Shown in pieces: positions 9,144 through 47,133 of a stretch of 51,572 nucleotides of DNA; position 1 is the first letter of the stretch, and every line of letters starts with the position of its first letter. The DNA lies in NCBI RefSeq assembly GCF_035615515.1, contig NZ_JAJENT010000802.1, positions 1 through 51,572 on the forward strand, read 5' to 3'. The notes beneath the pieces were generated by a model. It did not search any database and was not told the origin of the DNA. It saw only the letters and a program-made list of their open reading frames with translations. The translations under genes were made by a program, and so were the position numbers. Source of the stretch: Phormidium sp. CCY1219. Lineage in GTDB: Bacteria; Cyanobacteriota; Cyanobacteriia; Cyanobacteriales; Laspinemataceae.

Positions 9144-9632
9144 TTACAGCTTTTCGATGGTCTTCATCGCCGAAACTTTGGGATTTTTCCGGGTCGAACC
9201 GGTTCCCACGGGTACCCGACCGATTAATTGCTGAGGGAAGTCATGGGCCGCGATCGCCCGCGCCCGCGCCCGGGCGATCGCTTGTTGGGCGCGGGTTTTT
9301 TCCGGACGACTCTGGGCGCTGTGCAAACTTTCCCGGGCAGTTTCTAAAGCACTATCCGCCATCGCACAATCGATTTCGTCTCCGCGTTCTGCGCCATTGA
9401 CCACCACCGTCACTTCGTCTGCTTCAACTTCGGCAAATCCTCCCATCACGAATATCGGAAGCCAATCTTTTTCAAACCGCACCCGTATCACCCCGACTTG
9501 GAGAAATGTTACAATCGATACATGACCCGGGAGGATGCCAATTTGACCGTTAGTGGTGGGCAAAATGATTTCGGGGGTGGGCGCATCCCAGACGACTTTT
9601 GTGGGCGTGACGACATGAAGGTTCAAAGTCAT
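9144..9632 (-). CDS. atpC: F-type ATP synthase epsilon-subunit homolog; solitary and divergent, with a ~30-aa C-terminal extension
   Basis: MTLNLHVVTPTKVVWDAPTPEIILPTTNGQIGILPGH..VRFEKDWLPIFVMGGFAEVEADEVTVVVNGAE aligns along its length with cyanobacterial AtpE/epsilon. No beta-subunit gene lies upstream. Confidence 0.75.
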   Translation of the reverse strand: MTLNLHVVTPTKVVWDAPTPEIILPTTNGQIGILPGHVSIVTFLQVGVIRVRFEKDWLPIFVMGGFAEVEADEVTVVVNGAERGDEIDCAMADSALETARESLHSAQSRPEKTRAQQAIARARARAIAAHDFPQQLIGRVPVGTGSTRKNPKVSAMKTIEKL

Positions 9633-10619
9633 AGCAATTTTAGATTTTTCGATGTTACATTCAACATGAATTCACCATGCAAATCTTAAACTGTGAAATT
9701 ATAGCACTGCTGTGGGTTCCTTTTTCTCGTGAGACTTCCCCCTCCCCCACCCGATCGCGCCTTTCCCCCCGATCGCCCGCACTGGCGTAGGCATCCCACC
9801 CGCGATCGCGCAATCGCCTCGCCATTTTTCCCTTGCTGATTGCCGATTCATCATCTAAAATCATTACCCATCATTAACTTGAGAGTTGCAGATTGCAGGG
9901 ATTGCAGAAACATCGGCGGCTGACGCCGGGGCCTTGGGAGAATAAATTGCATTGTGTTCACGAGAAAAACCGGTGGGGTCCCCCAGACATCCCTGGATCC
10001 CGACAGTGAGCCCGGGGGAGATTTGTTTAAAAATATGTTAACCGAGCCGTCAAATTTTTTACGATTCGCAATCTACACCTTTCACGTTTTATGATATTAT
10101 GGTTAGTTGCTTTTTTTTAAAACAAGTAACCGCACCACAAAAAAGCGAGCGGCAGCTTGTTAAAAAATATTAAGGGCGATCGGGATAGACCCAAAGCAAA
10201 GAAAGGCCGGAAAATTTCAGCACAAACCAGAGGTAAAATAGAAAAAGTCCACCGGGTGCATCTGGGAAAAAAATCAAGGGAAAAGCACTGGCCGATGGGG
10301 GGAATCGAGGCGGCTGAGTAGGGGCAGAAACCCTGTGTCCGTGAACGTTGCGGCCAGGGAGAGATTGCGATCGGGCAACCGAATCGAAGCGATCGCATCT
10401 CTGATACTTCGGATAGATTTTTCGCCCTGAGATTCACCATCTGTGGTTTTTGTCGTTTAGGATCGAGATGAGCTTGTCGGAAATGGCAAGTCAAGAAACC
10501 CGATCGAAAAACAGAAGTGAAACCCTGTTTTCATGGAGACCTTATGAAAAAACTAACCTTTAGAAGACAACCGATTTAACAACTGAGGATATTCGACGCA
10601 AGCAGGTGAAACAGCCGCC

Positions 10620-13382
10620 ATGAGAATTTTACTGGTGGAGGATGACGAGCCGATCGCGCAAGCGTTAGTCGCCACACTCCGAGAGCAAAACTATGTTGTA
10701 GACATCGCCACCGACGGACAAGAAGGGTTAGAACTGGTCGAAGCCTTTGGCTACGACTTGATTCTGCTCGACGTCATGCTACCCAAGCTCGATGGTATCA
10801 GTTTGTGTGGCAAGCTACGAAACTCCGGCTATCAGATGCCGATTTTATTGCTCACCGCAAAAGACACCACCGAAGACAAAGTTAAAGGACTCGATGCCGG
10901 GGCAGATGATTATCTGGTCAAACCCTTCGACATTCCCGAATTAACCGCAAGAATTCGCGCCTTATTGCGGCGAGGAAATGCCCCCTTATCCGCGATACTA
11001 GAGCGGGGACAACTGCAACTGAACCCCAACACCTGCGACGTCACCTATGCCAGCAAACCCGTCACCCTGACCCCCACCGAATATCGCTTGCTCGAACTCT
11101 TTTTGCGAAACAGCAACCGAGTTTATAGCCGCAGTGCCATCCTCGATCACCTGTGGTCTTTTGACGAACCCCCTGCAGAAGACACGATTCGGGCGCATAT
11201 CAAAGGCTTGCGACAGAAATTGAAAGCCGCAGGCGCGCCTGCGGACTTAATCGAAACCGTGTATGGGATTGGATATCGGCTCAAACCCCTCAGTTCCGAG
11301 GACAAATACCGCGAACCGCCCAAGATTCTCATGGCGGGATTGCCAGAAGAATTGGGTTTTTGGTTACAGCAGCGACTGGGGAAAGTCTCGGTGCGAGTCA
11401 CCCATACCGGAGAAGAGACCCTGCAAGAAATCAGCGCCGCGCCCCAGAGTTGGTCGCTGTTAATCGTAGACGTGCAGTTAAAAGAACCGGCAGGGGTGGA
11501 AGTGCTGCGCCAGGTAGCCAGCATGAGAAAAGGCAAACACGAACTGCCGACGATTTGGTGTGTGGAGAAAGGGGAACAGACGGGAAATGGGGAGCGCTTC
11601 AACGGAAAAGGGAAGGGAAAAACTGCCGGAAACGGAGCCAGCGATCGCGTGACTCATGCAACCTGCGTCTTAGTTCATCCCATCGATCGCGTAGAACTAG
11701 CGCGCCAAGTGGCCAAAATCCTGGAATTGCCCCTGAGTACGCGAGAAGACGGTTCCTCTGAGGAAGCCACCTTAGCCGCCGTAGGGAAAGTTTGGGAGCG
11801 GTTCAAAGACCGGATCGGCGATCGCGTCACCACCCTAGAGCAAGCCAGCAATGCCCTCAAAAGCGGCGAACTCAACTCAGACTTGCACGCCAAAGCGCAA
11901 AGAGAAGCCCACAAACTAGCCGGATCCCTAGGGACCTTCGGGTTTTCCAAAGGTTCAGAAATTGCCAAAGAAGTGGAGCAGTTATTGCGCGATCGCCCCT
12001 TGGAGTGTGAAGACGGGTTGCATTTATCGAAATTAGTAGTAGAACTTCGCAGCCAGCTCGAGCGCAGTCCCTCTCCAAAGCAGACTGCATCCGTGGGGGT
12101 TGCGGAAGACAAACCGATGCTGTTGCTGGTAGATGGAGACCCAGAGCAAGGGTCTCGCCTGACAGCAGAAACCCAGCAGTGGGGAATGCACGGAATCGTC
12201 GCCAATACAATTGCCAGGGCCAGAGCGGCGATCGGCGATCGGCGGCCCGAGGTAGTGATTTTAGACCTCGATGTCCCCGCCCCAGAAACAGACGGCAAAC
12301 GCCCCCATCAAGAAGCATTAGATTTCCTCGCCGAACTCGCCAACCGCTTCCCCCCCATTCCCGTGGTGGTTTTAACCGATCGCAGCAGCGTAGAAGAGCG
12401 CTTAGAAGTCGCCCGACTCGGCGGACGCGCCTTTTTGCAAAAACCCCTGCGCCCCGAGCGCATTATGGAGGTAGTCACTCAGGTTCTGCAACGCGCCCAC
12501 AACACCGAGGCGAAAATTATGGTGGTAGACGATGACCTGCAGGTGCTTTCCCTAGTGCGAACCTTTCTCGAGCCTTGGGGTCTCAAATCCCTCCCCCTTT
12601 CCGACCCCCATCGCTTCTGGGAAACCCTGGAACACACCATGCCCGACTTGCTGGTGCTGGATGTGGAAATGCCTCACATCAGCGGCATCGAACTATGTCA
12701 GGTAGTTCGCAACGACCCGCGCTGGAGCGGACTGCCGGTGCTATTTCTCACCGGACACCGGGATCCGAATACCGTGCATCGAGTGTTCGCCGCCGGGGCC
12801 GATGATTACGTCAGCAAACCGATCGTCGGGCCGGAATTGGTGAATCGGATTCTCAATCGCTTAGAACGAGTGCAGTTATTGCGAAATATGGCCGAAACCG
12901 ATGCCCTGACTGGCGTGGCCAACCGTCGCAAGTCTACCCAAGAGTTAGAGAAGTTTCTCAAGCAAGCTGCCACTCACGACCAACCCATGTGTTTGGCGAT
13001 TTTGGATCTCGATCGCTTCAAATGGGTGAACGATCGCTACGGTCATGCCACCGGGGATACTATGTTGCGTCATTTTGGCAAACTGTTATTACGCACCTTC
13101 CGCAGTGAAGATGTGGTCGCCCGCTGGGGCGGCGACGAGTTCGTCGTCGGGATGTACGGGATGACGAAAATCAATGGAATGAAGCGTCTGAGCGAGTTGC
13201 TCGATATCATGCACCAAGAATCGGCAATCCCGGTTCCGGAAGGAAACTGGCAAGTGACCTTCAGTGCCGGCGTAGCTGAATATCCCGAGGATGGGATAAA
13301 ATTGGAAGCCCTTTATCGCTGTGCCGATGACGCCCTGTATCGCGCCAAGGAAGAAGGCCGCGATCGGATTGTGGCTCGTTAA
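10620..13382 (+). CDS. multidomain response regulator / diguanylate cyclase: OmpR-type REC + winged helix, pseudo-REC, Hpt, REC, REC, GGDEF
   Basis: MRILLVEDDE..LILLDVMLP (REC); LTPTEYRLLELF..YGIGYRL (winged HTH); AHKLAGSLGTFGF (Hpt); MLLLVDGD..VVILDLDVP; KIMVVDDD..LLVLDVEMP; RWGGDEFVV (intact GGDEF). Confidence 0.85.
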   Translation: MRILLVEDDEPIAQALVATLREQNYVVDIATDGQEGLELVEAFGYDLILLDVMLPKLDGISLCGKLRNSGYQMPILLLTAKDTTEDKVKGLDAGADDYLVKPFDIPELTARIRALLRRGNAPLSAILERGQLQLNPNTCDVTYASKPVTLTPTEYRLLELFLRNSNRVYSRSAILDHLWSFDEPPAEDTIRAHIKGLRQKLKAAGAPADLIETVYGIGYRLKPLSSEDKYREPPKILMAGLPEELGFWLQQRLGKVSVRVTHTGEETLQEISAAPQSWSLLIVDVQLKEPAGVEVLRQVASMRKGKHELPTIWCVEKGEQTGNGERFNGKGKGKTAGNGASDRVTHATCVLVHPIDRVELARQVAKILELPLSTREDGSSEEATLAAVGKVWERFKDRIGDRVTTLEQASNALKSGELNSDLHAKAQREAHKLAGSLGTFGFSKGSEIAKEVEQLLRDRPLECEDGLHLSKLVVELRSQLERSPSPKQTASVGVAEDKPMLLLVDGDPEQGSRLTAETQQWGMHGIVANTIARARAAIGDRRPEVVILDLDVPAPETDGKRPHQEALDFLAELANRFPPIPVVVLTDRSSVEERLEVARLGGRAFLQKPLRPERIMEVVTQVLQRAHNTEAKIMVVDDDLQVLSLVRTFLEPWGLKSLPLSDPHRFWETLEHTMPDLLVLDVEMPHISGIELCQVVRNDPRWSGLPVLFLTGHRDPNTVHRVFAAGADDYVSKPIVGPELVNRILNRLERVQLLRNMAETDALTGVANRRKSTQELEKFLKQAATHDQPMCLAILDLDRFKWVNDRYGHATGDTMLRHFGKLLLRTFRSEDVVARWGGDEFVVGMYGMTKINGMKRLSELLDIMHQESAIPVPEGNWQVTFSAGVAEYPEDGIKLEALYRCADDALYRAKEEGRDRIVAR

Positions 13383-13848: not shown

Positions 13849-15039
13849 ATGACCAAAGCAGATAAAAACCTCGACAATCCGACAGCGAGTTCGGAACTCG
13901 CCAGTGGCGTCATTCGCCTCAAACCGCAACATTACATTCATGTTTTAGACAACAACACGGGGATTACCCGGTTGGAAGTCGGACCGCAAACCGTTACCCT
14001 GCGCGATGGAGAACGACTGCTATAGCAGGTCTAAATCAGTTGTACAATTCTTAACGGGAGTGGGAGCGTCTCGCTCCCTACACTGACAAGCGAGCTGGAA
14101 GCTCGCACTGCCATATCAATTGCATGAATCATTTAGACTAGCTATATTAAAACCGCAACCGGCAATTGTGGATGCGCGATGAAAACGGGGAACCGATCGC
14201 CGATTCTCCACGATTACAAAGAACGCACCGCGCGCACGGTATTCAAACCGGATTTAGTCATGTTAGGTCCGGATGAAGCGTTTACGATTTTAAGTTTATC
14301 CGGAGATAAGCCCAAACGTCCCAATGCGATTAAAGCCCTCGCTTTATTTTTAGGGCCGGATTTTATGACGGATATCTTCACCGTGGAAACTTCGGACCAC
14401 GCGCGGCTGCAATTGCAGTTATCTTATAATTGGCATTTTGATGTCGATCGCACCAACGAAGAACAAGCCGGCAAATTGTTTCAAGTGCCGGATTTTGTCG
14501 GGGCCGCCGGGGTGCAATTTGACGAATTTCACCGCAATTCAGCCCGCATCATTCGTTAAGCAGTGTTTGGGTTAGATGAACAGGGACGGATTCGCGAAGC
14601 GTTCCGGTTTCCGGCGAATAATTTGGTGATGACCAACATCGACATCCAATCCGTGGAACCGGTGGATGAAGAAACTCTAAAAAGCCTGCAAAAGTCGGTA
14701 CAATTGGCTATTCAAATTACCACCGATGCCCAAGAAGCCGCCGCCCGCCACGATGCCGAACGCATCGCCCAAGAAGCCCAAGCGCGACTGGAACGACAGG
14801 CAATTGTAGACAAAGGAGCTGCGGAAGCAAAACGGCGCAATCTGTTAGCATTAGAAGCAGAAAATGTGGCGATCGCCTCTGCGGGACAAGCTACCGCTGA
14901 AGCCCGCGCCAAAGCCCAAGCCGCACAAATTCAAGGGCAATTGCAAGTGGATTTGGCCACCCAAGAAGCTGAAGCTAAGGCGATCGCTTCAGCAGTGGCG
15001 ATCGCCACCACTCTTCCAACGCCGATTCTATGTCAGTAA
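13849..15039 (+). pseudogene. major vault protein (MVP) homolog, decayed. It has an N-terminal repeat-1 fragment, an internal deletion of the central repeat domains, and an in-frame TAA inside the shoulder/cap-helix part.
   Basis: 13849-14025 encodes ..KPQHYIHVLDNNTGITRLEVGPQTVTLRDGERLL* (MVP N-terminus). 14200-14556 encodes ..[42 protein letters not shown], then TAA (14557-14559), then AVFGLDEQ..VDIQSVEPVDEETLKSLQKSVQLAIQITTDAQEAAARHDAERIAQEAQARLERQ.. (MVP shoulder and cap helix). Confidence 0.7.
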
Positions 15040-15775: not shown

Positions 15776-17659
15776 ATGTTCAATCCTTTTCACCGCGATC
15801 GCATCCCAACGCCACCCAAGCGTTTGAATAACGCCGAGCGATTTTCCACCTGTCTGATGGTGGATACGCAGCAGGGGCGTGTAGTGTTGCAATGGATTAC
15901 CCAACCGCGTTTGAGGCGCAACTTTCAGTTATATGCGGCGCGGGATCCGAACTTCGCGCGCTTGGGCGATCGGCGAGAAAGCGCCTTAGAAGCGTTTTGG
16001 ATCGACCTCGCCCTGAATCCGCCACCCCCCCAACCCTGGGAACCCACCAATCGCGAGCAACTCGCGTTGCAACATTTAGCCAGTTACTACGAACTCATTT
16101 GTGACAAAGCTGCCAAATGGATCGTCAACAAACATGGCCAACTTTTATGGCAAGATGCGTTCGATATTGCCAGAATCCTAGTCCATGACGAGGAAAAATT
16201 GGCAAGTATTTTAAGTCAATATCAAGCCAAAGGAGACGCTAAATTATCCACCTATTTGCAAGAAGTTTTAATCAGAACGATTAAAAGCGAAGCCTCAGTG
16301 GGTCGGTATTCTTACTGGCGGTTAGTCTGTCAAACGCCGCAGTATAAATTAATCGATGCCTTAGGGAGATTCGGATGTCAAGAGCCGGAAATTTCGCAGA
16401 TTATTTTTGCGCGAAAGTATTTCCACCAAGTGTATTTATTTAACCGGGTGAAAAGTCCACACAGAAAGCCGGGAGAAATTTGGCCCGTGCCCCAACCGGA
16501 AGACTTTGGCGAAACGGCAAATTGCTACAATGCGGAAAGACTACTGCCTTCCGCACCCCCTGAAGTAGCCGCCAATCCCAATCCCGTCACTGGCGAGCAG
16601 ATGAAAGCCTGGATGGAAACCTGTTTTGAAGCCTTAAAAACCACCAAAAAGTTAACAAAAGAATGTTGGTCTCTTGACGTGCTTCGAGAAAAAGGCAGAG
16701 AATTTGCAGCTCCGGAAACGGAAAGCGAAGACTATTTTATTAACATAGTGGGAGAGGGTCAATTTAAGGGAGGTTACTTGAATGAAGCGAAAGGAATTAG
16801 CGAACGGTTGGAAACCGAGCTGAGAAACTGTAAAAATGTTATCGAACTGCAAGTGGAAAATGGTCGGTGGTTCATCGATGAAACGAACCTGCTTCCCCTC
16901 ACCTACGGATTCGGCTTGACCCAAACGCAGATTGCTGCTTTATGCAACCTAAAACAATATCAAGTCAGTCGAAAGCTGAGTTACTATAAAACTCAATTGC
17001 TGAACGCTTTAACCGAGATTAGTCAGCCCGAGGAATGGGTTTTGCCCTATGTTAGGGAGTGGTTGCAGAAATATTTTCCAGCTCCCAACCGTGCGGATAT
17101 CATTCAAGCGGCTTTAGTCGAAGCGCTCAAAGAGATTACAGCCTCAGAACGAGAGTTATTGTCCCTGTGCTACGGAGAGCAACTCGATGTCAGGGCGGTA
17201 GGCGATCGCCTGGGAATCTCGCCAGAGGAAGTCGAAGCGAAATTAAACCGCATTGAAACCCAGTTGCATAATGCGTTATTGAAGCACCTAGATAAATGGA
17301 TGAAAGAGTATATCAAGCAATGGCTGTATGAGGTTTACCAACTGTCCATTCAACAAGTCTTAATCCATCATGTCCAGGAGCTGCCATTGCCAATTCAGAA
17401 CAGCTTGCAAATTCATTATCAAAATTATGCCAAACCGGAACAATTAGCGCGGGAGGTGAGACTTAGCGAATCAGAGGATAGCCAGCTTTTTTGGAAAGGA
17501 AGGTGCCAGGTAGAAGAGGATTTAGTTCGGTGGATTTTGGAGGAACTAAACATTAACCTGACTGGAAATAAAGAACGGGAAAGAATTAATAAAATCGTCG
17601 AGCGAAACTTGATAGCCATCTATAAACAAGGTAAAGGAGGACAAGACAATGAGAGCTAG
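15776..17659 (+). CDS. hypothetical protein with duplicated sigma-70-like modules (region-2-like segment plus two region-4-like HTHs)
   Basis: LLWQDAFDIARILVHD..YLQEVLIRTIKSE (sigma region-2-like); LTQTQIAALCNLKQYQVSRKL (region-4-like); SERELLSLCYGEQLDVRAVGDRLGISPEEVEAKLNRIETQL (canonical region-4-like). Confidence 0.55.
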   Translation: MFNPFHRDRIPTPPKRLNNAERFSTCLMVDTQQGRVVLQWITQPRLRRNFQLYAARDPNFARLGDRRESALEAFWIDLALNPPPPQPWEPTNREQLALQHLASYYELICDKAAKWIVNKHGQLLWQDAFDIARILVHDEEKLASILSQYQAKGDAKLSTYLQEVLIRTIKSEASVGRYSYWRLVCQTPQYKLIDALGRFGCQEPEISQIIFARKYFHQVYLFNRVKSPHRKPGEIWPVPQPEDFGETANCYNAERLLPSAPPEVAANPNPVTGEQMKAWMETCFEALKTTKKLTKECWSLDVLREKGREFAAPETESEDYFINIVGEGQFKGGYLNEAKGISERLETELRNCKNVIELQVENGRWFIDETNLLPLTYGFGLTQTQIAALCNLKQYQVSRKLSYYKTQLLNALTEISQPEEWVLPYVREWLQKYFPAPNRADIIQAALVEALKEITASERELLSLCYGEQLDVRAVGDRLGISPEEVEAKLNRIETQLHNALLKHLDKWMKEYIKQWLYEVYQLSIQQVLIHHVQELPLPIQNSLQIHYQNYAKPEQLAREVRLSESEDSQLFWKGRCQVEEDLVRWILEELNINLTGNKERERINKIVERNLIAIYKQGKGGQDNES

Positions 17660-19109
17660 AAACCATCGCAGAATTAACCCGATTGATGACTCGTTAATGT
17701 TGAAAATCGCACCGGAAGACCAAGAACGAGGGTGGCAGCTTGCTCAGAGCCATTCCAATGCGATCGCCCGCTATCATGGATATCTCAACTGGCTGAGTGT
17801 TAAAACAGTCTTACCTTGGCTGGAGGAATGGGCAGCGGAAGAAAATTTACCCAGACCCGCAATTTGGCCCGGGGAAGAAAGAGTGCCGAGCGTTTTAGAA
17901 CTCGTCCATAATGGCACTGCCATTCAAGTGGGTAACAGGCGATTAATCCTGATTCCATCAGATGAAATGGAACCCGAATTGTTTACCGTACCCCAGGAAT
18001 GGGTAGACAATCCGAGCTGGATGGGAGATTATTATTTAGCAGTGACAGTTAGTGTGGAAGGAGAAGAGGATGACTGTTGGATGAAAGTATGGGGATTCGC
18101 CACCCACCGACAGGTGAAAAATCGAGGAAATTATGATGCAAACCATCGCAGTTATTCCCTAGCGCTTGCAGAGTTAACCCGTGACTTAACGGTAATGGAA
18201 ATTGCGTTAGGACTTCAGGTGCGCGAGGTAGTGAAACCTTTACCACAGTTATCGGAAACCGAAGTAAAACAATGGTTAGAGCAGTTGGGAGATGCGTCAG
18301 TATATTCGCCGCGCTTGCAATTGCAGGTGCCTTTTGAGAAATGGGCCGCCCTGTTGAGTGACGATCGCCTCAGACAACACCTGTGCGATCGACGCATGGG
18401 AAAATTAGCGGCGGAGGTGGAAAATACCTCGCCGGTAAAGTTGCGAGAATGGTTAGAGAATGTGCTTGACTCGGGAAAGAATGCGTTAGAAGATGGATGG
18501 CAACAGTTTGAGTGGCTGGTATCTCCAGCAGAACCCAGTGCGGTGCGCGGGAAAAGCGAAGTGGTAGACGCCATTGCACCAGTCATTCGCTTGCTGCAAC
18601 CCAAGGAATTAGAACAGACTCGTCGCCATGCGGCGGGGGTATTGGGAGAACTAGGGGTGGGCAATCCAGAGGCGATCGATGCGTTAACCCAATTGTTGCA
18701 TACCGCTCGCGAGGAGGAAACCCGTTGGCAAGCGGCGCTGAGTTTGGGTAAAATCAGTCCGGGGCATCCGCAAGCTGGAATTAGAAAAGCCAGGTATCTG
18801 GATTTTGGATTGCAGTTGGAGGGTCACTCGATTGCGTTAATTGTTGCCATTATGCCCAGAAATGATAACCGACTCGGCGTGTTTTTGCAAGTGCAACCAA
18901 TCGCGGGAAGGAAATTGCCACCCTATCTAAAATTGAGCCTACTTTCGGAATCTGGAGAAACGAAAAAAGAAGTGGAAAGTCGAAGTGATGAGGAAGGAAA
19001 AGGAAAGGATAACTTAATTCAATTGCGGTTTAGTCCGCCTTCGGGCACTCGATTTAAGGTGCGAGTTTCAGTGAATGAAGTTAGCGCTACCGAGGAGTTT
19101 ATCGCATAA
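17649..19109 (+). CDS. hypothetical protein with C-terminal HEAT/PBS-lyase-type repeats (possibly DUF1822-like); overlaps the upstream gene by 11 nt
   Basis: HAAGVLGELGVGNPEAIDALTQLLHTAREEETRWQAALSLGKI is an E-Z/HEAT repeat. The ATGAGAGCTAG overlap implies translational coupling. Confidence 0.55.
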   Translation: MRARNHRRINPIDDSLMLKIAPEDQERGWQLAQSHSNAIARYHGYLNWLSVKTVLPWLEEWAAEENLPRPAIWPGEERVPSVLELVHNGTAIQVGNRRLILIPSDEMEPELFTVPQEWVDNPSWMGDYYLAVTVSVEGEEDDCWMKVWGFATHRQVKNRGNYDANHRSYSLALAELTRDLTVMEIALGLQVREVVKPLPQLSETEVKQWLEQLGDASVYSPRLQLQVPFEKWAALLSDDRLRQHLCDRRMGKLAAEVENTSPVKLREWLENVLDSGKNALEDGWQQFEWLVSPAEPSAVRGKSEVVDAIAPVIRLLQPKELEQTRRHAAGVLGELGVGNPEAIDALTQLLHTAREEETRWQAALSLGKISPGHPQAGIRKARYLDFGLQLEGHSIALIVAIMPRNDNRLGVFLQVQPIAGRKLPPYLKLSLLSESGETKKEVESRSDEEGKGKDNLIQLRFSPPSGTRFKVRVSVNEVSATEEFIA

Positions 19110-19149
19110 CATATGCCGCAGTTAAGCGAATTAGCAGGGAACTACAGTT

Positions 19150-21636
19150 ATGGGAAAGGCGATCGTTTTAAAAATAGTGGCGGGTGACTTTGACAGCGGA
19201 TTTCCCGTTGTGTTACAAGTCTTGGACGAGCGCGGCGGTCTTCCTTTGGCAGAACGCTCGGGTTATCTTCCACCGCATCCGCATTTGGAAGGATATTATT
19301 TCAATTGGCAAACTAGCTTTCGCAGTCTGACAAGTCAGAGAGGGAGGGATTGGGGAATCGATCCAGATTTACCCTCTAATGTTTCTAATGAATACGATAT
19401 AGAAGCTTGTCGCGAATATGCCAAATTGCTAGAAAAAAATATGAAAGAGTGGCTGCGGCAGACAGTTGATGCAGGATGTCTAAACATTAGAGAGAGATTG
19501 ATTGAGGATTTGGCGGAAAATAGGGGTAACGTTCGCATAACGATCCAAGCCAATCCCAAATTATGGAAGATGCCTTGGTTGGAGTGGGATATATTGTCAA
19601 AGTATGCCGATTTGGGGATTGGGTTTAGTCTGCTGGAGTATCAGAAACCCGACGCGATCGCTCGCAGTGGAAAGCAAGGTGCTGCCGTGCGAATTTTGGC
19701 GGTGTTTGGCAACAACGAGAATATTGATTTGACACCGGATAAACAGGCGATCGCGCAACTGCCGAATGTCGAGTTAGAACCGTTGGAGCAACCCTCGGCA
19801 GCAGAAGTGATTCAGAAGTTACGAGATAAGAGAGGATGGGATATTTTCTTTTTTGCCGGTCACAGTCAAACCAAAGGCGATGAGGGAATCATTTATATCA
19901 ACGAACGGGAAAGTTTAGAAATCGGACAGTTTAAGGAGGCGTTAAAGGAAGCGATTCGCCAGGGATTGCAATTAGCGATTTTTAATTCTTGCGACGGATT
20001 GGGGTTAGCGGAAAAGCTGGCGGGATTGCACCTGCCGATCGCGATCGTGATGAAAGAACCCGTGCCCGATCGGGTAGCGCAGCGCTTTTTAACAGAGTTT
20101 TTGAAGGAATATGCATCGGGAGCGTATTTATATACGGCGGTGAGGCAAGGGCAAAAATGTTTAGAAGAATTTATCGATTTACCGGGATGTACCGGGTTGC
20201 CGATCGTCTGTCAGAATCCGGCTGAAGTGCCGCCGACATGGGAGGAGTTGCGGGGTAGGGAAAGGGGAAGTGTATTGATTCCCGAATCGATAGAGATAAG
20301 CGATGCCGGAACTATTTTCCGCGATCGCGAAAAGCAAGTGCCGGATGAACTCACTGGTTCCTCAGTTCGCGATCGTAAAATTGTATGGAGAAAACTGGGT
20401 CGCTCATTAGCTGTGAGTTTTGCGATCGGGCTGTTTGTCCTCAGCGCACAATGGCAAGGAAAACTTGAAACCTGGGAACTGCAAGCCTTTGACCATTTAA
20501 TGAGGCAGCTTCCCGTGGAAGACATAGATCGCAGGCTTTTAATTGTGGGAGCCGATGAAACGGATTTGAGCTTGTATGGACACCCTTTACCGGATGCTAT
20601 TTTAGCAGAAGTTTTAGAAAAAATCAATGAGTATCAACCTGCGGCAATTGGGTTAAATATTATTCGCGATCGTCCAGTGGAAAACAGAAATTATCCCGGC
20701 GAACATAACGCTTTCCTGACTCAGATAAATACTTCATCAAAAAATGTGATTTTAGTCTGTTCTATCGGAAATGACTTAGACAGTAGCACAGAGCCTTTAC
20801 CAGGACTGGTGGATAGCGAGCGACAAGTGGGATTTATTGATGTGTTTGACGATCGTGATTTAGCCCTGGACAATCGCTTACGTCGCTATCTCTTATATCG
20901 CAGTGATAATCCAGTTCCCGAGCCTACGAAATGTCATACTCCTTATTCTTTAGTTTGGCATGTAGTGGAGCGTTATTTCCAACATCATCACTCTATTGAC
21001 GTGACCCTATCCCATAGCCACTCAAAATTTGGCTCAGTTGGGATTCAACGGATCGCAAATCGCAGTGGGGGATACCAGAATTTGGGGGAATATGCTAAAG
21101 GCAATCAAATACTGATTCGTTATCGCCATACTCCGGATCCGAATCAGATCGCTCACCAAATTACCGTGCGAGATGTGTTGGAACAACGCCATTCGTTTAA
21201 ACGATCTCGAATCGAAGGAAATGTTGTTTTGATTGGCATGACCGCTCCAACGTTACAGAAGTCGTTTTCTACCCCTTATGGGAAAATTAGCGGGTTAAAC
21301 ATTCATGCCCATGTAGTGAGCCAGATCCTTAGTACCGTTGAGGGGGAATTGAAGGGCAAAAATAAGCGACCCTCGATTTGGTGGTGGCCTCAATGGGTTA
21401 ATGCACTTTGGGTATTATTATGGTCATCTATTGGTGGAACGATCGTCTGGCGTTTTCAACAACCTTTACAGCGATGGGTAGCCATTAGTGGTGCTATTCT
21501 GATATTATATGGAGTCTGTTTGTTTGCCTTAACTCAAGGAGGCTGGATTCCACTAATACCAACCATTTTAACCCTCCTGACCCCCACCTTTTGCTTGAGT
21601 TTATATACCCTATTCAAGCTGAAGTCGTTTGATTAA
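19150..21636 (+). CDS. CHAT (caspase-like protease) domain fused to a CHASE2 sensor domain: N-terminal cytoplasmic CHAT, TM, periplasmic CHASE2, three C-terminal TMs
   Basis: CHAT His/Cys dyad context DIFFFAGHSQ .. LAIFNSCDGLGLA. TM helix LAVSFAIGLFVLSA. CHASE2 motifs LLIVGADETDLSLYG, VGFIDVFDDRDLALDNRLRRYLLY, VVLIGMTAPTLQKSFSTPYGKISGLNIHAHVVSQIL. A hydrophobic C-terminus gives three helices. Confidence 0.8.
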   Translation: MGKAIVLKIVAGDFDSGFPVVLQVLDERGGLPLAERSGYLPPHPHLEGYYFNWQTSFRSLTSQRGRDWGIDPDLPSNVSNEYDIEACREYAKLLEKNMKEWLRQTVDAGCLNIRERLIEDLAENRGNVRITIQANPKLWKMPWLEWDILSKYADLGIGFSLLEYQKPDAIARSGKQGAAVRILAVFGNNENIDLTPDKQAIAQLPNVELEPLEQPSAAEVIQKLRDKRGWDIFFFAGHSQTKGDEGIIYINERESLEIGQFKEALKEAIRQGLQLAIFNSCDGLGLAEKLAGLHLPIAIVMKEPVPDRVAQRFLTEFLKEYASGAYLYTAVRQGQKCLEEFIDLPGCTGLPIVCQNPAEVPPTWEELRGRERGSVLIPESIEISDAGTIFRDREKQVPDELTGSSVRDRKIVWRKLGRSLAVSFAIGLFVLSAQWQGKLETWELQAFDHLMRQLPVEDIDRRLLIVGADETDLSLYGHPLPDAILAEVLEKINEYQPAAIGLNIIRDRPVENRNYPGEHNAFLTQINTSSKNVILVCSIGNDLDSSTEPLPGLVDSERQVGFIDVFDDRDLALDNRLRRYLLYRSDNPVPEPTKCHTPYSLVWHVVERYFQHHHSIDVTLSHSHSKFGSVGIQRIANRSGGYQNLGEYAKGNQILIRYRHTPDPNQIAHQITVRDVLEQRHSFKRSRIEGNVVLIGMTAPTLQKSFSTPYGKISGLNIHAHVVSQILSTVEGELKGKNKRPSIWWWPQWVNALWVLLWSSIGGTIVWRFQQPLQRWVAISGAILILYGVCLFALTQGGWIPLIPTILTLLTPTFCLSLYTLFKLKSFD

Positions 21637-21652
21637 ACTAATGCACTGATTT

Positions 21653-22432
21653 GTGTTTCTATTTTCTATGATGAAACTGCTGATTCACTTGTTATTTGCG
21701 AGCGTCATTGCTCTTGCCAGTATGCTGAGGCTCCCTGCTTCCATGAGTACGGAAATGGGGGGACAACAAGTAGCCCAAGAGACAGAACCAACAGATCCAG
21801 GAACACCAAAAGGAACATCTGAACCAGCGGGAACCCGACCCGAATCAACTTGTCCGCCAACGGAAACACCTCTAACAGCCATTAATCATGGAAACGAGAG
21901 TGATTTTACCCTAGCGGAATATCCGATTTTTTTCTTTTATAATCCTTATTCCCGCGAAAATCTGGATGCCATTGAATTTTCCCTCTATGACAGAGCCGAA
22001 CGCCGCACTATTTATAGAACTGAGATAGAACCCCGTGAAAATCCAGGAATTATCCAACTGAGGATTCCCGAACAGGCTGATTATGGCTTAGAGGTTAATC
22101 AAACCTATCGGTGGTATCTTACCGCCTATTGTTCCGAACGCCGTACTGATGGCCCGGATGTGGAAATTAACGGCTGGATTCATCGCAAACCGATGACGGA
22201 ACAACTGGAGGCTGAGCTAGAAAATCCCTCGATTCCCCAATACATCACCTATATGAATGAGGGAATTTGGTACGATGCCGTTAGCCTTCTCGCCCAAAGT
22301 TATGCATCTAATCCACAGAACCAAACATTTAAAGAAGCGTGGGAGAATTTGTTGCAAGCGTTAGGTAGAGAACACTTGAGTCAAGAGCCATTGATTAACC
22401 CGGTGGTGAGTGGAGGAGAGGCAGACGAGTAA
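21653..22432 (+). CDS. secreted protein, DUF928-like (tentative)
   Basis: Signal peptide MMKLLIHLLFASVIALASM. About 230 aa remain in the mature part. It lies 16 nt after the CHAT-CHASE2 gene. Confidence 0.45.
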   Translation: MFLFSMMKLLIHLLFASVIALASMLRLPASMSTEMGGQQVAQETEPTDPGTPKGTSEPAGTRPESTCPPTETPLTAINHGNESDFTLAEYPIFFFYNPYSRENLDAIEFSLYDRAERRTIYRTEIEPRENPGIIQLRIPEQADYGLEVNQTYRWYLTAYCSERRTDGPDVEINGWIHRKPMTEQLEAELENPSIPQYITYMNEGIWYDAVSLLAQSYASNPQNQTFKEAWENLLQALGREHLSQEPLINPVVSGGEADE

Positions 22433-22542
22433 TACCTTGTTGGTAGCAAATCTCTCAATCTAAGATTTTCTGGTGTAGGGGCAATTCATCAATTAAACCT
22501 ACACTATTAATTGAGGCGCTATCCTCCTGGGGATTTGGACGT

Positions 22543-43231: not shown

Positions 43232-43636
43232 AATACCCTTCTTTTTTGTTCGCCAAAGCGATCGCCTCTCTGCGCGCTACAGTGCAGTGGTCTGTTCGGT
43301 TTCTCGGATATCCCGAACCGATTTCGAGGCCGGTGCCCCTGCGCCCCCCCCTTTCTGCCGGAAATTACAGGTTGCCATTTTGGAATATGGAGCAATGGCA
43401 AGCGGATACTTCCGAGTGGGGAATCATCACTTCGGACGTTTGGCGGGGGTCAAACCTCGACGGCAATCTCGAGACTATTTTATTATCCCACAACCGCCAT
43501 GTGCGAGGATGCCCCGGGAAAATGGCGGATCCCCACCGGGATGTGGCGCTAGAATGCGCCATCGGCGAAGGGGGGAATCTCTGCACCGGAGCGATCGCGA
43601 TTTACTATAGAATAAACCACCAGATCGAGAAAGCCG

Positions 43637-45753: not shown

Positions 45754-47133
45754 TTATTCTTCATTCTTGGCTACGGGTAACATAATTTCAAATTCCGTTC
45801 CGATACCGACTTGGGAGTTTAAATTAAGTTTGCCTTTGTGCTTGTCTTTGATAATTTCGTTGCTAATGGCCAAACCGAGTCCGGTGCCTTTGCCGACGGG
45901 TTTGGTGGTAAAAAATGTCTCGAAAATCCGCTTTTGAATGTCTTTGGGGATGCCCGGCCCGTTATCGCGAATGCGAATAACGGCCCAATCGGAATTGTCT
46001 GAGATTTGTAACAGTTCGGTGGCGATTTCGATGCGCGGTTTCCAATCGGCATCGGCCTTGGGATTGGCTTTTTCTGCTTCCAAGCGCTCCATCAGGGCAT
46101 CTACGGCGTTGCTTAGCAGATTCATAAAGACTTGGCTGAGTTGTCCGGAATAGCACTCTACGGGAGGCAGTTTGCCATAGTTTTTATTCAGTTCAATATC
46201 GTATTTAATCCGGTTATGGAGAATCAACAGGGTACTATCAATGCATTCATGCAAGTCGGCGGGTTTGCGGGCGGTTTCGTCCATGTGGGAAAAGTTTTGC
46301 ATGCCGCCAACGATTTTGGTTAAGCGGTGGGCACTGACTTCGATCGCTTGGACGATTTTGGGGAAATCTTCGCGCAAAAATTCTAAATCGATGTCGGATT
46401 CGAGTTCCCTGAGTCTGTCGGATTTTTCGGTCATTTCTTCTTCGTAAACCGAGAGCAAATCGAGGACGTCTTGGACGTAGTTGGTTAAAAATCCCATGTT
46501 GCCGCTAATACAGTTGACGGGATTTTTGATTTCGTGGGCGACGCCGGCCACCATGCGCCCCAAACTGGCCATTTTTTCGGTTTGAATCATGTGGGAGCGG
46601 GTTTGCTCCTGTAGCATTTTGGTGGTCAGTTCGTGAATTTTGGACTGGGCGACGAGGAGTTGATGGACGTCGAGGAGGCGGTAAACATCGGGTTCGAGTT
46701 CGACGACGATCGGTTCGTAGAGAAGTTGGGGCGATCGCTGTAGCGATCGGCGGGCGGCGAGGACGATTAAGGTGTTGCTCGGAATAATTAAATGTTGAGT
46801 TTTGGTAAAGTTATGGAGGGTTCTCAGGGGTCGTTTGGAAAATAGTTCTAATCCGTAGGGACGACTCAGATGCTCTAAAAATCGACGTCTGGAAATCATG
46901 CCTACGAATTTCTCGCCTTCGACTAAAATCGCTCCGGGCATTAGCGGATTTTGGGCAAAGGCTCTGGCTAGTGCTTCCCCGGGTTCGGATGCTTCGATCG
47001 CAAAGTCATAGAGTGTCAGTTCTTCCAGTGTAGATTCTAAATTCAGTTCCGGCGTCCATTGCCGTTCTTCTGGTTCTTGCAGGAATAATTCGGGATACTT
47101 GTCTTTTACGGCTAGCATTCTCTGTTCCCTCAC
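45754..47133 (-). CDS. sensor histidine kinase with an N-terminal CBS-pair-like sensor domain
   Basis: H-box VAGVAHEIKNPVN. HATPase N and G boxes (LLSNAVDAL; IRDNGPGIP; GTGLGLAIS). The N-terminal 170 aa are paralogous to the N-terminus of the 47680-48783 gene. Confidence 0.85.
   Translation of the reverse strand: MREQRMLAVKDKYPELFLQEPEERQWTPELNLESTLEELTLYDFAIEASEPGEALARAFAQNPLMPGAILVEGEKFVGMISRRRFLEHLSRPYGLELFSKRPLRTLHNFTKTQHLIIPSNTLIVLAARRSLQRSPQLLYEPIVVELEPDVYRLLDVHQLLVAQSKIHELTTKMLQEQTRSHMIQTEKMASLGRMVAGVAHEIKNPVNCISGNMGFLTNYVQDVLDLLSVYEEEMTEKSDRLRELESDIDLEFLREDFPKIVQAIEVSAHRLTKIVGGMQNFSHMDETARKPADLHECIDSTLLILHNRIKYDIELNKNYGKLPPVECYSGQLSQVFMNLLSNAVDALMERLEAEKANPKADADWKPRIEIATELLQISDNSDWAVIRIRDNGPGIPKDIQKRIFETFFTTKPVGKGTGLGLAISNEIIKDKHKGKLNLNSQVGIGTEFEIMLPVAKNEE

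What the first reader, a model, noticed from the sequence alone, without database searches (positions are those of the whole stretch)
9633..13382. Seven-module response regulator (REC-wHTH-pseudoREC-Hpt-REC-REC-GGDEF) behind a ~1-kb non-coding leader
One polypeptide combines an OmpR-type DNA-binding response regulator, an Hpt phosphotransfer domain with the histidine in AHKLAGSLG, two further receivers and an intact GGDEF. It is an entire phosphorelay with both transcriptional and c-di-GMP outputs. The ~990 bp between it and the divergent atpC-like gene contains no credible ORF and is AT-richer than its surroundings, which would suit a long 5' UTR or a small regulatory RNA.
Basis: partly seen in the sequence, partly recalled or inferred. 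Interest (0 to 1): 0.5.

Follow-up and report, generated by a model that had tools for sequence, protein, structure and literature searches.

The report
RcaC-type response regulator with diguanylate cyclase
This cyanobacterial gene encodes a large signalling protein that resembles the known light-colour regulator RcaC but carries an added enzyme domain for the messenger c-di-GMP, and most of the long DNA gap in front of it looks like ordinary spacer rather than a regulatory RNA.

Summary
The 920-aa ORF (10620-13382, +) and its seven modules are real. Pfam finds REC, wHTH, Hpt, REC, REC and GGDEF, and a structure model confirms the weak third module as a receiver fold lacking its catalytic residues. 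It is not an assembly artefact: more than 100 cyanobacterial protein clusters share the architecture.

The protein aligns end to end with RcaC, the chromatic-acclimation regulator of Fremyella diplosiphon. RcaC's D51, H316 and D576 fall on D51, H431 and D681. So it is an RcaC-type core with a lineage-specific pseudo-receiver insert and a C-terminal GGDEF. It has no kinase, so it is a relay hub with two probable outputs, not an entire phosphorelay. Relatives have a PAS/GAF histidine kinase gene directly downstream; this one is an orphan.

The 987-bp gap has no ORF, Rfam hit, tRNA, unusual folding or unusual composition. A gap of 1.0-1.4 kb persists in 10 syntenic loci, but only two parts are conserved: the atpC promoter region, and a 21-bp box (10401-10421) followed 36 bp later by a -10-like hexamer. 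This suggests a 5' UTR of about 150 nt.

Verdict: an uncharacterised variant of a known kind, of modest interest.

The parts
9144..9632 (-). atpC (ATP synthase epsilon subunit), monocistronic and divergent from the regulator gene
   Evidence: Pfam ATP-synt_DE_N 82.8 bits and ATP-synt_DE 25.9 bits. The neighbour order ligA> <atpC [gap] RR> is conserved in 10 loci.
9633..9720 (-). Conserved atpC-proximal region: probable atpC promoter and 5' UTR, with a minus-strand TATAAT at 9698-9703
   Evidence: First 15 nt are identical in L031. Identity within the Laspinema group is 0.75-0.94. The TATAAT is present at the same place in all 10 loci.
9721..10397 (.). Unconserved spacer of about 680 bp: a pyrimidine-rich stretch with HIP1 sites, an AT-rich stretch and a purine-rich stretch
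   Evidence: No significant blastn or tblastx match to orthologous gaps. The equivalent part is indel-rich and near-neutral in the Laspinema group. No Rfam, Pfam or tRNA hit. Only one fold outlier, on the minus strand at 10081-10240 (z about -3 to -3.5; a re-fold of 10085-10215 gave -2.6), and it has no detectable sequence match in the orthologous gaps.
10401..10421 (+). Conserved 21-bp box CTGATACTTCGGATAGATTTT: candidate transcription-factor site or upstream promoter element
   Evidence: Near-identical in the Laspinema-group loci and more diverged in L031 (GTGAACCTTTAGATAGATTTT), although four-fold sites in the gene are saturated at 0.32-0.44 identity. Unique in the window. Absent from the more distant family loci.
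10458..10463 (+). -10-like hexamer TAGGAT, 36 bp after the box; inferred TSS near 10470
   Evidence: A TAnnAT hexamer sits at exactly +57 from the box start in all 11 loci, and is the only promoter-like element conserved in position. This is inferred, not mapped.
10470..10619 (+). Inferred 5' UTR of about 150 nt
   Evidence: Conservation resumes at the box and runs to the ATG in the orthologues. Folding z-score -0.15. No convincing covariation in the orthologous UTRs.
10620..13382 (+). Gene for the 920-aa RcaC-type complex response regulator with a GGDEF output
10626..10958 (+). REC1, canonical receiver (D8 D9 D51 T79 K101 invariant)
   Evidence: Pfam 113 bits; invariants; aligns with RcaC 1-118 including D51.
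11055..11282 (+). OmpR/PhoB-type winged-helix DNA-binding domain
   Evidence: Trans_reg_C 88 bits. Residues 1-228 are 55% identical to the RcaC-cluster protein P0283.
11322..11735 (+). Pseudo-receiver insertion (residues 235-372), found only in the long (about 920-1000 aa) class
   Evidence: Absent from short-class homologues. D284 is at least 90% conserved, but the acidic pair is replaced by G-L-P and the Lys by His. AlphaFold2 gives a receiver fold with a Gly/Lys-rich loop in place of helix alpha4. Foldseek top hits are almost all receiver domains.
11790..12053 (+). Hpt domain, His431 (codon 11910-11912)
   Evidence: Pfam 48 bits. H431 is invariant and aligns with RcaC H316.
12120..12476 (+). 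REC3, a divergent receiver (D549, T586 and K608 kept; acidic pocket variable)
   Evidence: Pfam 43 bits; residue table; aligns with RcaC residues of about 382-520.
12516..12851 (+). REC4, canonical receiver (D637 D638 D681 T711 K733 invariant)
   Evidence: Pfam 89 bits; D681 aligns with RcaC D576; among the best-conserved domains.
12891..13367 (+). GGDEF diguanylate cyclase domain (motif at 13128-13142; RSED I-site-like motif upstream)
   Evidence: Pfam 145 bits. GG[DE]EF in 11 of 12 aligned homologues, with D798, N804, D813 and K910 invariant.

Best explanation
The gene encodes an orphan, RcaC-type 'complex' response regulator of Phormidium sp. CCY1219. Its core is REC-wHTH-Hpt-REC-REC, as in the chromatic-acclimation regulator RcaC. 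Two additions distinguish it: a C-terminal GGDEF diguanylate cyclase, and a lineage-specific pseudo-receiver inserted between the DNA-binding domain and the Hpt.

The most likely mechanism is as follows. A sensor histidine kinase encoded elsewhere delivers phosphate. This happens either through a receiver (an RcaF-like protein or the kinase's own receiver) onto Hpt His431, or directly onto one of the protein's own receivers. The Hpt then passes phosphate on to REC1 Asp51, which switches on DNA binding by the winged helix, and to REC4 Asp681, which activates the adjacent GGDEF as in REC-GGDEF cyclases. One input would therefore drive both transcription and c-di-GMP synthesis. The pseudo-receiver cannot be phosphorylated in the canonical way and probably acts as a spacer or docking module.

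Shown here: the architecture, the homology to RcaC, residue conservation and kinase linkage in relatives. Inferred: the direction of phosphate flow and the activity of both outputs.

The 987-bp upstream gap is not one long leader. It consists of the atpC promoter region (about 90 bp), about 680 bp of unconstrained spacer, and the regulator's own promoter region (conserved box 10401-10421, then a -10-like hexamer at 10458-10463) with a 5' UTR of about 150 nt.
For: Architecture. Pseudo-receiver fold.

Homology to RcaC: BLASTP against P0283 aligns residues 1-228 (55% identity, E 3e-76) and 380-756 with RcaC-cluster residues 265-651 (37%, E 6e-68). H316 falls on H431 and D576 on D681. P0283's 90%-identity cluster contains UniRef100_Q01473, 'Protein RcaC'.

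Literature: RcaE phosphorylates RcaC via RcaF, and RcaC is an OmpR-class factor with three receiver domains and a winged helix (PMC8256508, PMC5737509, PMC4390838).

Family landscape: of the 150 nearest 50%-identity representatives, 65 are REC-wHTH-Hpt-REC-REC and 28 add a GGDEF.

Conservation: the catalytic residues of REC1, Hpt, REC4 and GGDEF are conserved, and REC1, wHTH and REC4 are the most conserved modules.

Kinase partner: PAS/GAF HisKA-HATPase genes lie directly downstream on the same strand in five related loci. None has an Hpt, and one metagenomic protein fuses such a kinase to the regulator.

Leader.
Against: There are no biochemical or transcript data. The route of phosphate is not fixed by the comparisons: four of the five linked kinases in relatives are not hybrid, which favours direct phosphorylation of an internal receiver, whereas the RcaC precedent and the hybrid or fused kinases favour entry at the Hpt.

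No kinase or RcaF-like gene lies next to this gene. The nearest HisKA-HATPase gene (45754-47133, -) is about 32 kb away and only weakly similar.

The I-site arginine is not invariant in the family.

The TSS is inferred from conservation only. The consensus scan found a non-conserved sigma-70-like site at 10072-10100 that would give a leader of about 510 nt. Why the gap stays at 1.0-1.4 kb in 10 loci, although most of its sequence is free to change, is unexplained.
Confidence: 0.6

Rival explanations
1. The whole gap of about 1 kb is transcribed as a long 5' UTR of the regulator gene, or holds a small regulatory RNA or riboswitch (for example a c-di-GMP-sensing one) that controls it.
For: The gap is long and ORF-free. 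Its length of 1.0-1.4 kb is kept in 10 syntenic loci. A sigma-70-like site with an extended -10 lies at 10072-10100 (+). One minus-strand segment, 10081-10240, folds better than shuffles, with z about -3 to -3.5.
Against: There is no Rfam match even at E up to 10 in the window, and none at gathering score in L001, L002 and L031. About 680 bp has no sequence conservation, while a 21-bp box nearby is strongly conserved over the same evolutionary distance. Plus-strand fold z-scores are unremarkable. Covariation in the orthologous UTRs is unconvincing. Composition equals that of other intergenic DNA. The fold outlier is on the strand opposite to the regulator gene and has no detectable sequence match in the orthologous gaps.
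Confidence: 0.1
2. The architecture is the same, but the relay runs wholly inside the protein. A conventional kinase phosphorylates one internal receiver (REC1, REC3 or REC4), that receiver passes phosphate to Hpt His431, and the Hpt passes it to another internal receiver. This would be a self-contained Asp-His-Asp relay, close to the first reader's idea but without the kinase.
For: Four of the five kinase genes linked to family members are plain HisKA-HATPase proteins with no receiver and no Hpt. They must therefore phosphorylate a receiver directly. The protein carries three receivers with intact acceptor Asp residues.
Against: In RcaC, the only studied relative, phosphate reaches the protein through the separate receiver protein RcaF (PMC8256508, PMC5737509). 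One linked kinase (L019) and the fused one (P0081) are hybrids with two receivers and no Hpt, an arrangement that needs an external Hpt. An unlinked RcaF-like gene cannot be excluded in any of these genomes.
Confidence: 0.25
3. The GGDEF domain, the wHTH domain or both are vestigial, so the protein has only one real output, or acts mainly as a phosphate sink or scaffold.
For: The PleD equivalog model scores 295 bits, below its 474 cutoff. The I-site arginine varies and one homologue has GGAEF. Most RcaC-type relatives function without a GGDEF.
Against: GG[DE]EF and the metal- and substrate-binding residues are conserved in 11 of 12 homologues, and the GGDEF domain is 48-77% identical across the aligned homologues. 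REC1 and wHTH are the most conserved parts at 64-91% identity, which argues for selection on DNA binding.
Confidence: 0.1
4. The long ORF is an assembly or sequencing artefact that joins separate genes.
For: None was found. The architecture is merely unusually long.
Against: Full-length collinear homologues at 50-72% identity occur in more than 100 clusters from independent isolates and metagenomes, and in syntenic loci of Laspinema, Oscillatoria and related genomes.
Confidence: 0.01

Closest known systems
RcaC of Fremyella (Microchaete) diplosiphon, UniProt Q01473: the complex OmpR-class regulator of type III chromatic acclimation, fed by RcaE via RcaF
   Same: Collinear sequence homology over all of RcaC: residues 1-228 at 55% identity and 380-756 at 37%. 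The module order REC-wHTH-Hpt-REC-REC is the same. D51, H316 and D576 align with D51, H431 and D681. RcaC is described as having three receiver domains plus a winged helix (PMC4390838).
   Different: The window protein carries a C-terminal GGDEF domain exactly where RcaC ends, and a 138-residue pseudo-receiver between the wHTH and the Hpt. It is a paralogue rather than an orthologue, with no rcaE- or rcaF-like neighbours. Its target DNA sites and input signal are unknown. The functional roles of D51, H316 and D576 are from my memory of Li & Kehoe 2005 and 2008, which were not held in the library.
PleD / WspR / CdgS-type REC-GGDEF diguanylate cyclases
   Same: A canonical receiver (REC4) sits directly upstream of an intact GGDEF with an RxxD motif five residues before it. 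Anabaena CdgS is a REC-GGDEF enzyme whose activity rises on phosphorylation through a kinase, receiver and Hpt relay (PMC9927289).
   Different: Here the Hpt is part of the same polypeptide, and so is a complete OmpR-type transcription factor. The PleD equivalog model is not reached (295 against 474 bits). In PleD, from my own knowledge, the first receiver is phosphorylated and the second is the adaptor. Here the GGDEF-proximal receiver is the canonical one.
Leptolyngbya boryana Dgc4, Dgc8 and Dgc9 (REC + Trans_reg_C + Hpt + GGDEF)
   Same: The same domain combination is noted in the Fig. S1 legend of bioRxiv 10.1101/2022.01.10.475764. That shows the architecture is recurrent and multi-copy in filamentous cyanobacteria.
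   Different: Those proteins were only listed, not studied. Their sequences were not compared here, and nothing is known about their function or about a pseudo-receiver insert.
RfpB, the far-red photoacclimation regulator (two receivers flanking a DNA-binding domain, fed by RfpA via RfpC)
   Same: It is another cyanobacterial multi-receiver DNA-binding regulator that is fed through a small receiver protein (PMC4390838).
   Different: No Hpt or GGDEF is reported for it. It was not compared by sequence here.

Membership tests
RcaC-type complex response regulators (REC-wHTH-Hpt-REC-REC) | Collinear sequence homology to RcaC (Q01473 cluster) over its full length | tested here: met
   BLASTP against P0283, which is at least 90% identical to Q01473: E 3e-76 for 1-228 and E 6e-68 for 380-756 against 265-651.
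RcaC-type complex response regulators (REC-wHTH-Hpt-REC-REC) | N-terminal receiver with the acceptor Asp (RcaC D51) followed by an OmpR-class winged helix | tested here: met
   Pfam Response_reg 113 bits and Trans_reg_C 88 bits. D51 is invariant and aligned.
RcaC-type complex response regulators (REC-wHTH-Hpt-REC-REC) | Internal Hpt with the phospho-accepting His (RcaC H316) | tested here: met
   Pfam Hpt 48 bits. H431 in AHKLAGSLG aligns with H316 in AHKLAGTLG.
RcaC-type complex response regulators (REC-wHTH-Hpt-REC-REC) | Two C-terminal receivers, the last carrying the acceptor Asp (RcaC D576) | tested here: met
   REC3 at 43 bits and REC4 at 89 bits. D681 aligns with D576. Three receivers are stated for RcaC in PMC4390838.
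RcaC-type complex response regulators (REC-wHTH-Hpt-REC-REC) | The protein ends after the last receiver, with no enzymatic output | tested here: not met
   A GGDEF domain follows (758-916). Of the 150 nearest representatives, 65 end after REC-REC and 28 add a GGDEF.
RcaC orthologue (chromatic acclimation function) | Input from the RcaE photoreceptor via RcaF, and L-box binding at phycobiliprotein promoters | not testable with these tools
   There are no rcaE- or rcaF-like genes near the gene. Identity to RcaC is 37-55%, while many closer RcaC-like proteins exist in other genomes. The L-box sequence is not given in the papers held.
REC-GGDEF diguanylate cyclases (PleD/WspR type) | GGDEF domain with an intact GG[DE]EF active site and conserved metal- and GTP-binding residues | tested here: met
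   Pfam GGDEF 145 bits. The GGDEF motif is at 837-841; D798, N804, D813 and K910 are invariant.
REC-GGDEF diguanylate cyclases (PleD/WspR type) | Canonical receiver directly upstream of the GGDEF | tested here: met
   REC4 residues D637, D638, D681, T711 and K733 are invariant.
REC-GGDEF diguanylate cyclases (PleD/WspR type) | Reaches the curated PleD equivalog score | tested here: not met
   NF007135 scores 294.9 bits against a cutoff of 474.
REC-GGDEF diguanylate cyclases (PleD/WspR type) | Phosphorylation-stimulated c-di-GMP synthesis | not testable with these tools
   This needs an enzyme assay.
Pseudo-receiver domains | CheY-like fold that lacks the acidic Mg2+ pocket and the conserved Lys | tested here: met
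   AlphaFold2 core pLDDT above 90 with beta-alpha topology. Foldseek hits include ArlR, BfmR, YycF, PmrA and FrzS receivers at TM 0.7-0.8. G-L-P replaces E-D-D and His353 replaces Lys, while D284 is kept.
Known cis-regulatory RNAs or sRNAs (Rfam), including c-di-GMP riboswitches | Match to a curated covariance model in the leader | tested here: not met
   The best hit in 9400-10800 has E 0.54 at 17.9 bits, to an unrelated eukaryotic lncRNA model. There are no gathering-score hits in L001, L002 or L031.
PhoB / RppA equivalogs (NCBIfam) | Score above the equivalog cutoff that reflects true one-to-one orthology | tested here: inconclusive
   TIGR02154 scores 304.5 against 296.2 and NF041734 scores 291.2 against 250. 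Both whole-protein scores sum two or three matched stretches, probably because the protein has several receivers. The 920-aa multi-domain architecture is not that of PhoB or RppA.

The most novel reading that the evidence does not exclude
The protein may be a single-polypeptide branch point. Hpt His431 would partition one phosphoryl input between REC1 (transcription) and REC4 (c-di-GMP synthesis). The lineage-specific pseudo-receiver would dock an unlinked kinase or bias that partition. The strongly conserved box at 10401-10421, about 50-70 bp upstream of the inferred TSS, would be the protein's own binding site, giving positive or negative autoregulation. Together this would be a self-tuning circuit that couples gene expression and second-messenger output in gliding filamentous cyanobacteria.
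Probability: 0.2. Interest if true: 0.55.

Novelty: new variant of a known kind. Interest (0 to 1): 0.3.

Why it matters
RcaC is the textbook 'complex' response regulator of cyanobacteria. This analysis shows that it is one member of a large family with the core REC-wHTH-Hpt-REC-REC. A sizeable branch of that family, including this gene, has added a diguanylate cyclase, so one phosphorelay could set both a transcriptional programme and c-di-GMP levels.

No member of the GGDEF branch appears to have been studied. The domain combination is only listed for Leptolyngbya boryana. Filamentous gliding cyanobacteria use c-di-GMP for motility and biofilm decisions, so these proteins are reasonable candidates for linking environmental sensing to both outputs.

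The practical value is a clear, testable set of residues (D51, H431, D549, D681, GGDEF), a candidate cis-element and a candidate kinase family. The leader, the other half of the finding, turns out to be mostly ordinary spacer.

Tried and rejected
1. Slr1588 of Synechocystis as a characterised relative. My recollection was wrong: it is CheY-EAL (PMC10124867).
2. CdgS/CdgK of Anabaena. CdgS is only REC-GGDEF, so it serves as an analogy and not as family membership. The paper on Anabaena's 16 c-di-GMP enzymes (PMC13075795) does not mention Hpt or HTH.
3. Rfam scans of the leader and of three orthologous loci found nothing. ARAGORN found nothing.
4. An upstream ORF suggested by the conserved TTTAGGATCGAGATG (31 codons, 10468-10563). 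In L031 the same ATG opens only three codons, and the ATG is absent in the Laspinema group, so it was rejected.
5. A two-copy motif: 9641-9667 resembles 10414-10440 at 78% identity. The atpC-side copy exists only in the window, and partly in L031, so it is not a conserved feature.
6. A metagenome scan for the 21-bp box returned 14 AT-rich contigs without the regulator gene and with almost no HIP1 sites. That matches chance expectation and is uninformative.
7. The box, the atpC neighbour and the long gap are absent from the more distant family loci.
8. Structured-RNA tests. The putative UTR gives z -0.15. A sliding scan found only a minus-strand outlier at 10081-10240. RNAalifold on eight orthologous UTRs gave an unfavourable covariation term of +3.17.
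9. Hidden genes in the gap. There was no Pfam hit for five ORFs, no tblastx signal and no copy of the leader elsewhere in the window.
10. Comparison of the box with the RcaC L-box. The L-box sequence is not given in any paper held, so this could not be done.
11. Kehoe & Grossman 1997 and Li & Kehoe 2008 are not held in the library.

Full report
**Observation**

The window is a contig of the cyanobacterium Phormidium sp. CCY1219. The encoded protein is 100% identical to an NCBI entry from that strain on a 51,572-bp contig, and the window holds 95 HIP1 octamers.

ORF 10620-13382 (+) encodes 920 residues. An in-frame stop 36 nt upstream fixes the start codon. Pfam scans of the whole protein and of seven segments give these modules:

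| Module | Residues | Score |
|---|---|---|
| REC1 | 3-113 | 113 bits |
| Trans_reg_C (wHTH) | 146-221 | 88 bits |
| weak REC | 252-319 | 19 bits, below the 30.2 cutoff |
| Hpt | 391-478 | 48 bits |
| REC3 | 501-619 | 43 bits |
| REC4 | 633-744 | 89 bits |
| GGDEF | 758-916 | 145 bits |

The divergent upstream gene 9144-9632 (-) is atpC. The gap between the two genes is 987 bp.

**The weak third module is a pseudo-receiver**

An alignment of 30 long-class homologues shows an Asp at the acceptor position (D284) in at least 90% of them. The acidic pair is replaced by Gly-Leu-Pro, and the conserved Lys by His353. AlphaFold2 models residues 225-385 with core pLDDT above 90. The topology is beta-alpha-beta-alpha-beta-alpha-beta, then a disordered Gly/Lys-rich loop, then beta-alpha. 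That is a CheY fold without helix alpha4. The top Foldseek hits in the PDB are almost all receiver domains: ArlR, BfmR, YycF, PmrA, Spo0F and the FrzS pseudo-receiver, with target-normalised TM 0.7-0.8.

The module is a lineage-specific insertion. Homologues of about 770-800 aa (Microseira, Chroococcidiopsis, Aetokthonos, Microcoleus) lack it entirely and join the wHTH to the Hpt by a short linker.

**Not an artefact**

The 120 best homologues all carry the same four Pfam families. Many are full-length collinear matches from independent isolates and metagenomes. Ten loci share the gene order ligA> <atpC [gap] RR>.

**What the protein is**

An exhaustive HMMER search with residues 1-630 found 9,473 representatives at E of 1e-30 or better. 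I classified the top 150 with domain HMMs built from my own alignment:
- 65 are REC-wHTH-Hpt-REC-REC with nothing further, typically about 600-680 aa.
- 28 add a GGDEF.
- 13 are REC-wHTH-Hpt-REC.
- Others carry extra receivers or unassigned C-terminal tails.
- Only five have the pseudo-receiver insert.

A search seeded with one no-GGDEF representative (P0246) returned P0283 from Tolypothrix tenuis PCC 7101. Its 90%-identity cluster contains UniRef100_Q01473, 'Protein RcaC' of Microchaete (Fremyella) diplosiphon, 651 aa.

BLASTP of the window protein against P0283 aligns residues 1-228 with 1-228 (55% identity, E 3e-76) and residues 380-756 with 265-651 (37%, E 6e-68). Counting along the alignment, RcaC H316 (AHKLAGTLG) falls on H431, and RcaC D576 (LVLDVNMP) falls on D681 of REC4. 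D51 corresponds to D51. RcaC ends where the GGDEF linker of the window protein begins.

The papers held here describe RcaC as an OmpR-class factor with three CheY-like receiver domains and a winged helix. It is phosphorylated by the photoreceptor kinase RcaE through the small receiver RcaF (PMC4390838, PMC8256508, PMC5737509, PMC13079394). The functional importance of D51, H316 and D576 is my recollection of Li & Kehoe 2005 and 2008, which are not held. That these positions are Asp, His and Asp in RcaC is confirmed directly by the alignment.

The window protein is therefore an RcaC-type core plus a pseudo-receiver insert plus a GGDEF output.

**Conservation by module**

REC1, wHTH and REC4 are the most conserved modules, at 64-91% identity to eleven homologues. 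GGDEF is at 48-77%, Hpt and REC3 at 40-68%, and the pseudo-receiver at 39-53%.
- REC1 (D8, D9, D51, T79, K101) and REC4 (D637, D638, D681, T711, K733) are fully canonical and invariant.
- REC3 keeps D549, T/S586 and K608 but has a variable acidic pocket.
- H431 is invariant.
- GG[DE]EF is present in 11 of 12 homologues, and D798, N804, D813 and K910 are invariant.
- The RxxD motif is present here (RSED), but its Arg varies within the family.

**The kinase question**

The protein has no HisKA or HATPase module, so it is not 'an entire phosphorelay'. One metagenomic protein, P0081 (1551 aa), fuses the short-class architecture to a C-terminal PAS-HisKA-HATPase-REC-REC module that has no second Hpt.

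Homologues of that kinase core (47-56% identity) lie directly downstream, on the same strand, of family regulator genes in loci L011, L013, L018, L019 and L020. Pfam shows multi-PAS/GAF sensor kinases. Four are plain HisKA-HATPase proteins and one (L019) is a hybrid with two receivers. None has an Hpt. The family is thus normally partnered with a sensor kinase that relies on the regulator's Hpt, on its receivers, or on both.

In the window and its ten closest orthologous loci no such kinase is adjacent. The nearest HisKA-HATPase gene in the window (45754-47133, -) is about 32 kb away and only weakly similar. The gene is an orphan.

**Mechanism**

Following the RcaC precedent and the hybrid or fused kinases, the most likely route is kinase, then a receiver, then Hpt H431, then REC1 D51 and REC4 D681. 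REC1 would activate DNA binding. REC4 would activate the adjacent cyclase, as in REC-GGDEF enzymes such as CdgS (PMC9927289).

The non-hybrid linked kinases leave room for a rival route: the kinase phosphorylates one internal receiver directly, and the Hpt shuttles phosphate to another. Both versions make the protein a dual-output relay hub. The direction of flow is inferred, not shown.

**The leader**

Nothing supports a structured or coding element:
- Rfam with permissive thresholds gives only noise (best E 0.54, to a eukaryotic lncRNA model).
- L001, L002 and L031 give no gathering-score hit.
- There are no tRNA or tmRNA genes.
- Five ORFs of 31-125 aa have no Pfam match.
- There is no tblastx signal against the orthologous gaps, and no copy of the leader elsewhere in the window.
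- GC is 0.471, the same as the window's other intergenic regions (mean 0.463).
- Fold z-scores on the plus strand range from -2.05 to +1.76. The putative UTR gives -0.15.
- The only outlier is on the minus strand at 10081-10240 (z about -3 to -3.5; a re-fold of 10085-10215 gave -2.6). It has no detectable sequence match in the orthologous gaps.

**What is conserved in the gap**

The gap is 987-1435 bp in all ten syntenic loci. Four-fold degenerate sites in the regulator gene are saturated between the window and its relatives, at 0.32-0.44 identity. Any conserved non-coding stretch is therefore under constraint. Only two stretches qualify.

1. The atpC-proximal region of about 90 bp. It carries a minus-strand TATAAT (9698-9703) at the same position in all ten loci. 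This is a plausible atpC promoter, giving a 5' UTR of roughly 60 nt.

2. A block at 10398-10470. It contains a 21-bp box, CTGATACTTCGGATAGATTTT (10401-10421), that is near-identical in the Laspinema-group loci and more diverged in L031. The box is unique in the window. Exactly 36 bp downstream, at +57 from the box start in every locus, lies a TAnnAT hexamer: TAGGAT here, and TACAAT, TACCAT, TACTAT or TATAAT elsewhere. It is the only promoter-like element conserved in position.

Within the Laspinema group the middle 600-900 bp is indel-rich and near-neutral. Conservation resumes exactly at the box and continues to the ATG.

The simplest reading is a promoter with a TSS near 10470, an upstream factor-binding box at about -70 to -50, and a 5' UTR of about 150 nt (about 300 nt in Laspinema). 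This is inference only. A non-conserved sigma-70-like site at 10072-10100 would give a leader of about 510 nt and cannot be excluded. Why the spacer stays long while its sequence drifts is unexplained.

**Comparison with what is known, and novelty**

The closest characterised relative is RcaC. The GGDEF-terminated branch appears in the literature held only as a list: Leptolyngbya boryana Dgc4, 8 and 9 are noted in a supplementary figure legend as having REC, Trans_reg_C, Hpt and GGDEF (bioRxiv 10.1101/2022.01.10.475764). I found no functional study. Searches for the domain combination returned none.

I rate the protein a new variant of a known kind: an RcaC-type regulator with a cyclase output and a pseudo-receiver insert. 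Interest is modest, because the architecture is common in filamentous cyanobacteria and is made of well-understood modules. The leader, the more speculative half of the finding, looks ordinary.

Noticed in passing
window 13849-15039 (+): A major-vault-protein-like gene is broken into three ORFs (13849-14025, 14179-14559, 14563-15039). Pfam Vault_3 and MVP_shoulder are split between fragments: profile positions 1-52 in one and 85-118 in the next. It looks like a frameshifted or decaying gene directly downstream of the regulator.
   Followed up: partly
window 9144-9720 (-): atpC stands alone with its own conserved TATAAT (9698-9703). It is not preceded by atpB (beta subunit), although from my own knowledge atpB-atpC operons are usual in cyanobacteria. 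At 162 aa it also has a longer C-terminal tail than typical epsilon subunits. The arrangement is conserved in 10 loci.
   Followed up: partly
window 45754-47133 (-) and 47680-48783 (-): A small HisKA-HATPase kinase (459 aa) lies next to a second GGDEF protein (367 aa with an unassigned 200-aa N-terminus). It is another c-di-GMP signalling pair, about 32 kb from the regulator.
   Followed up: no
window 15776-29843: A cluster of a sigma-70 region-4 protein, DUF1822, a CHAT+CHASE2 protein and DUF928 on the plus strand. It is followed on the minus strand by a TPR-CHAT protein and a 1510-aa protein that combines a TPS secretion domain with POTRA and ShlB/Omp85 domains, which looks like an exoprotein and its transporter fused in one ORF.
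   Followed up: no
window 38984-45517: A 1415-aa protein with an NNH5 (NACHT N-terminal helical) domain and WD40 repeats on the minus strand, divergent from a Ser/Thr protein kinase with WD40 repeats. These are eukaryote-like signalling architectures typical of filamentous cyanobacteria.
   Followed up: no
window 10081-10240 (-): This is the only segment of the gap that folds better than shuffled sequence (sliding-window z -3.0 to -3.5; a re-fold of 10085-10215 gave -2.6). It centres on a GC-rich hairpin (GCCGCUCGC...GUGGUGCGG) inside an AU-rich stem. No sequence match to it was found in the orthologous gaps.
   Followed up: partly
window 9641-9667 and 10414-10440 (+): A 27-nt direct repeat at 78% identity links the atpC start region with the 3' half of the conserved box (TAGATTTTTCG...ATTCA(A/C)CAT). 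It is present only in this genome, and partly in L031.
   Followed up: yes
L032 4001-8656 (protein P0081): A natural fusion of a short-class REC-wHTH-Hpt-REC-REC-GGDEF regulator with a PAS-HisKA-HATPase-REC-REC hybrid kinase, 1551 aa, on one metagenomic contig seen in two samples. It could be a true Rosetta-stone fusion or a lost stop codon.
   Followed up: partly
Alignment A3 columns 121-141 (L001-L009, about 230 nt upstream of the RR start): A small hairpin (CCCCAGG...UCUGGG) in the Laspinema-group 5' UTR shows two or three compensatory pair changes. It lies in a roughly 100-150-nt segment that the window, L031 and L006 lack.
   Followed up: partly
window 10620-13382 (annotation pitfall): The NCBIfam equivalog models for PhoB (304.5 against cutoff 296.2 bits) and RppA (291.2 against 250) are formally exceeded, apparently because several receivers add to the whole-protein score. 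Automated naming could mislabel proteins of this family.
   Followed up: no
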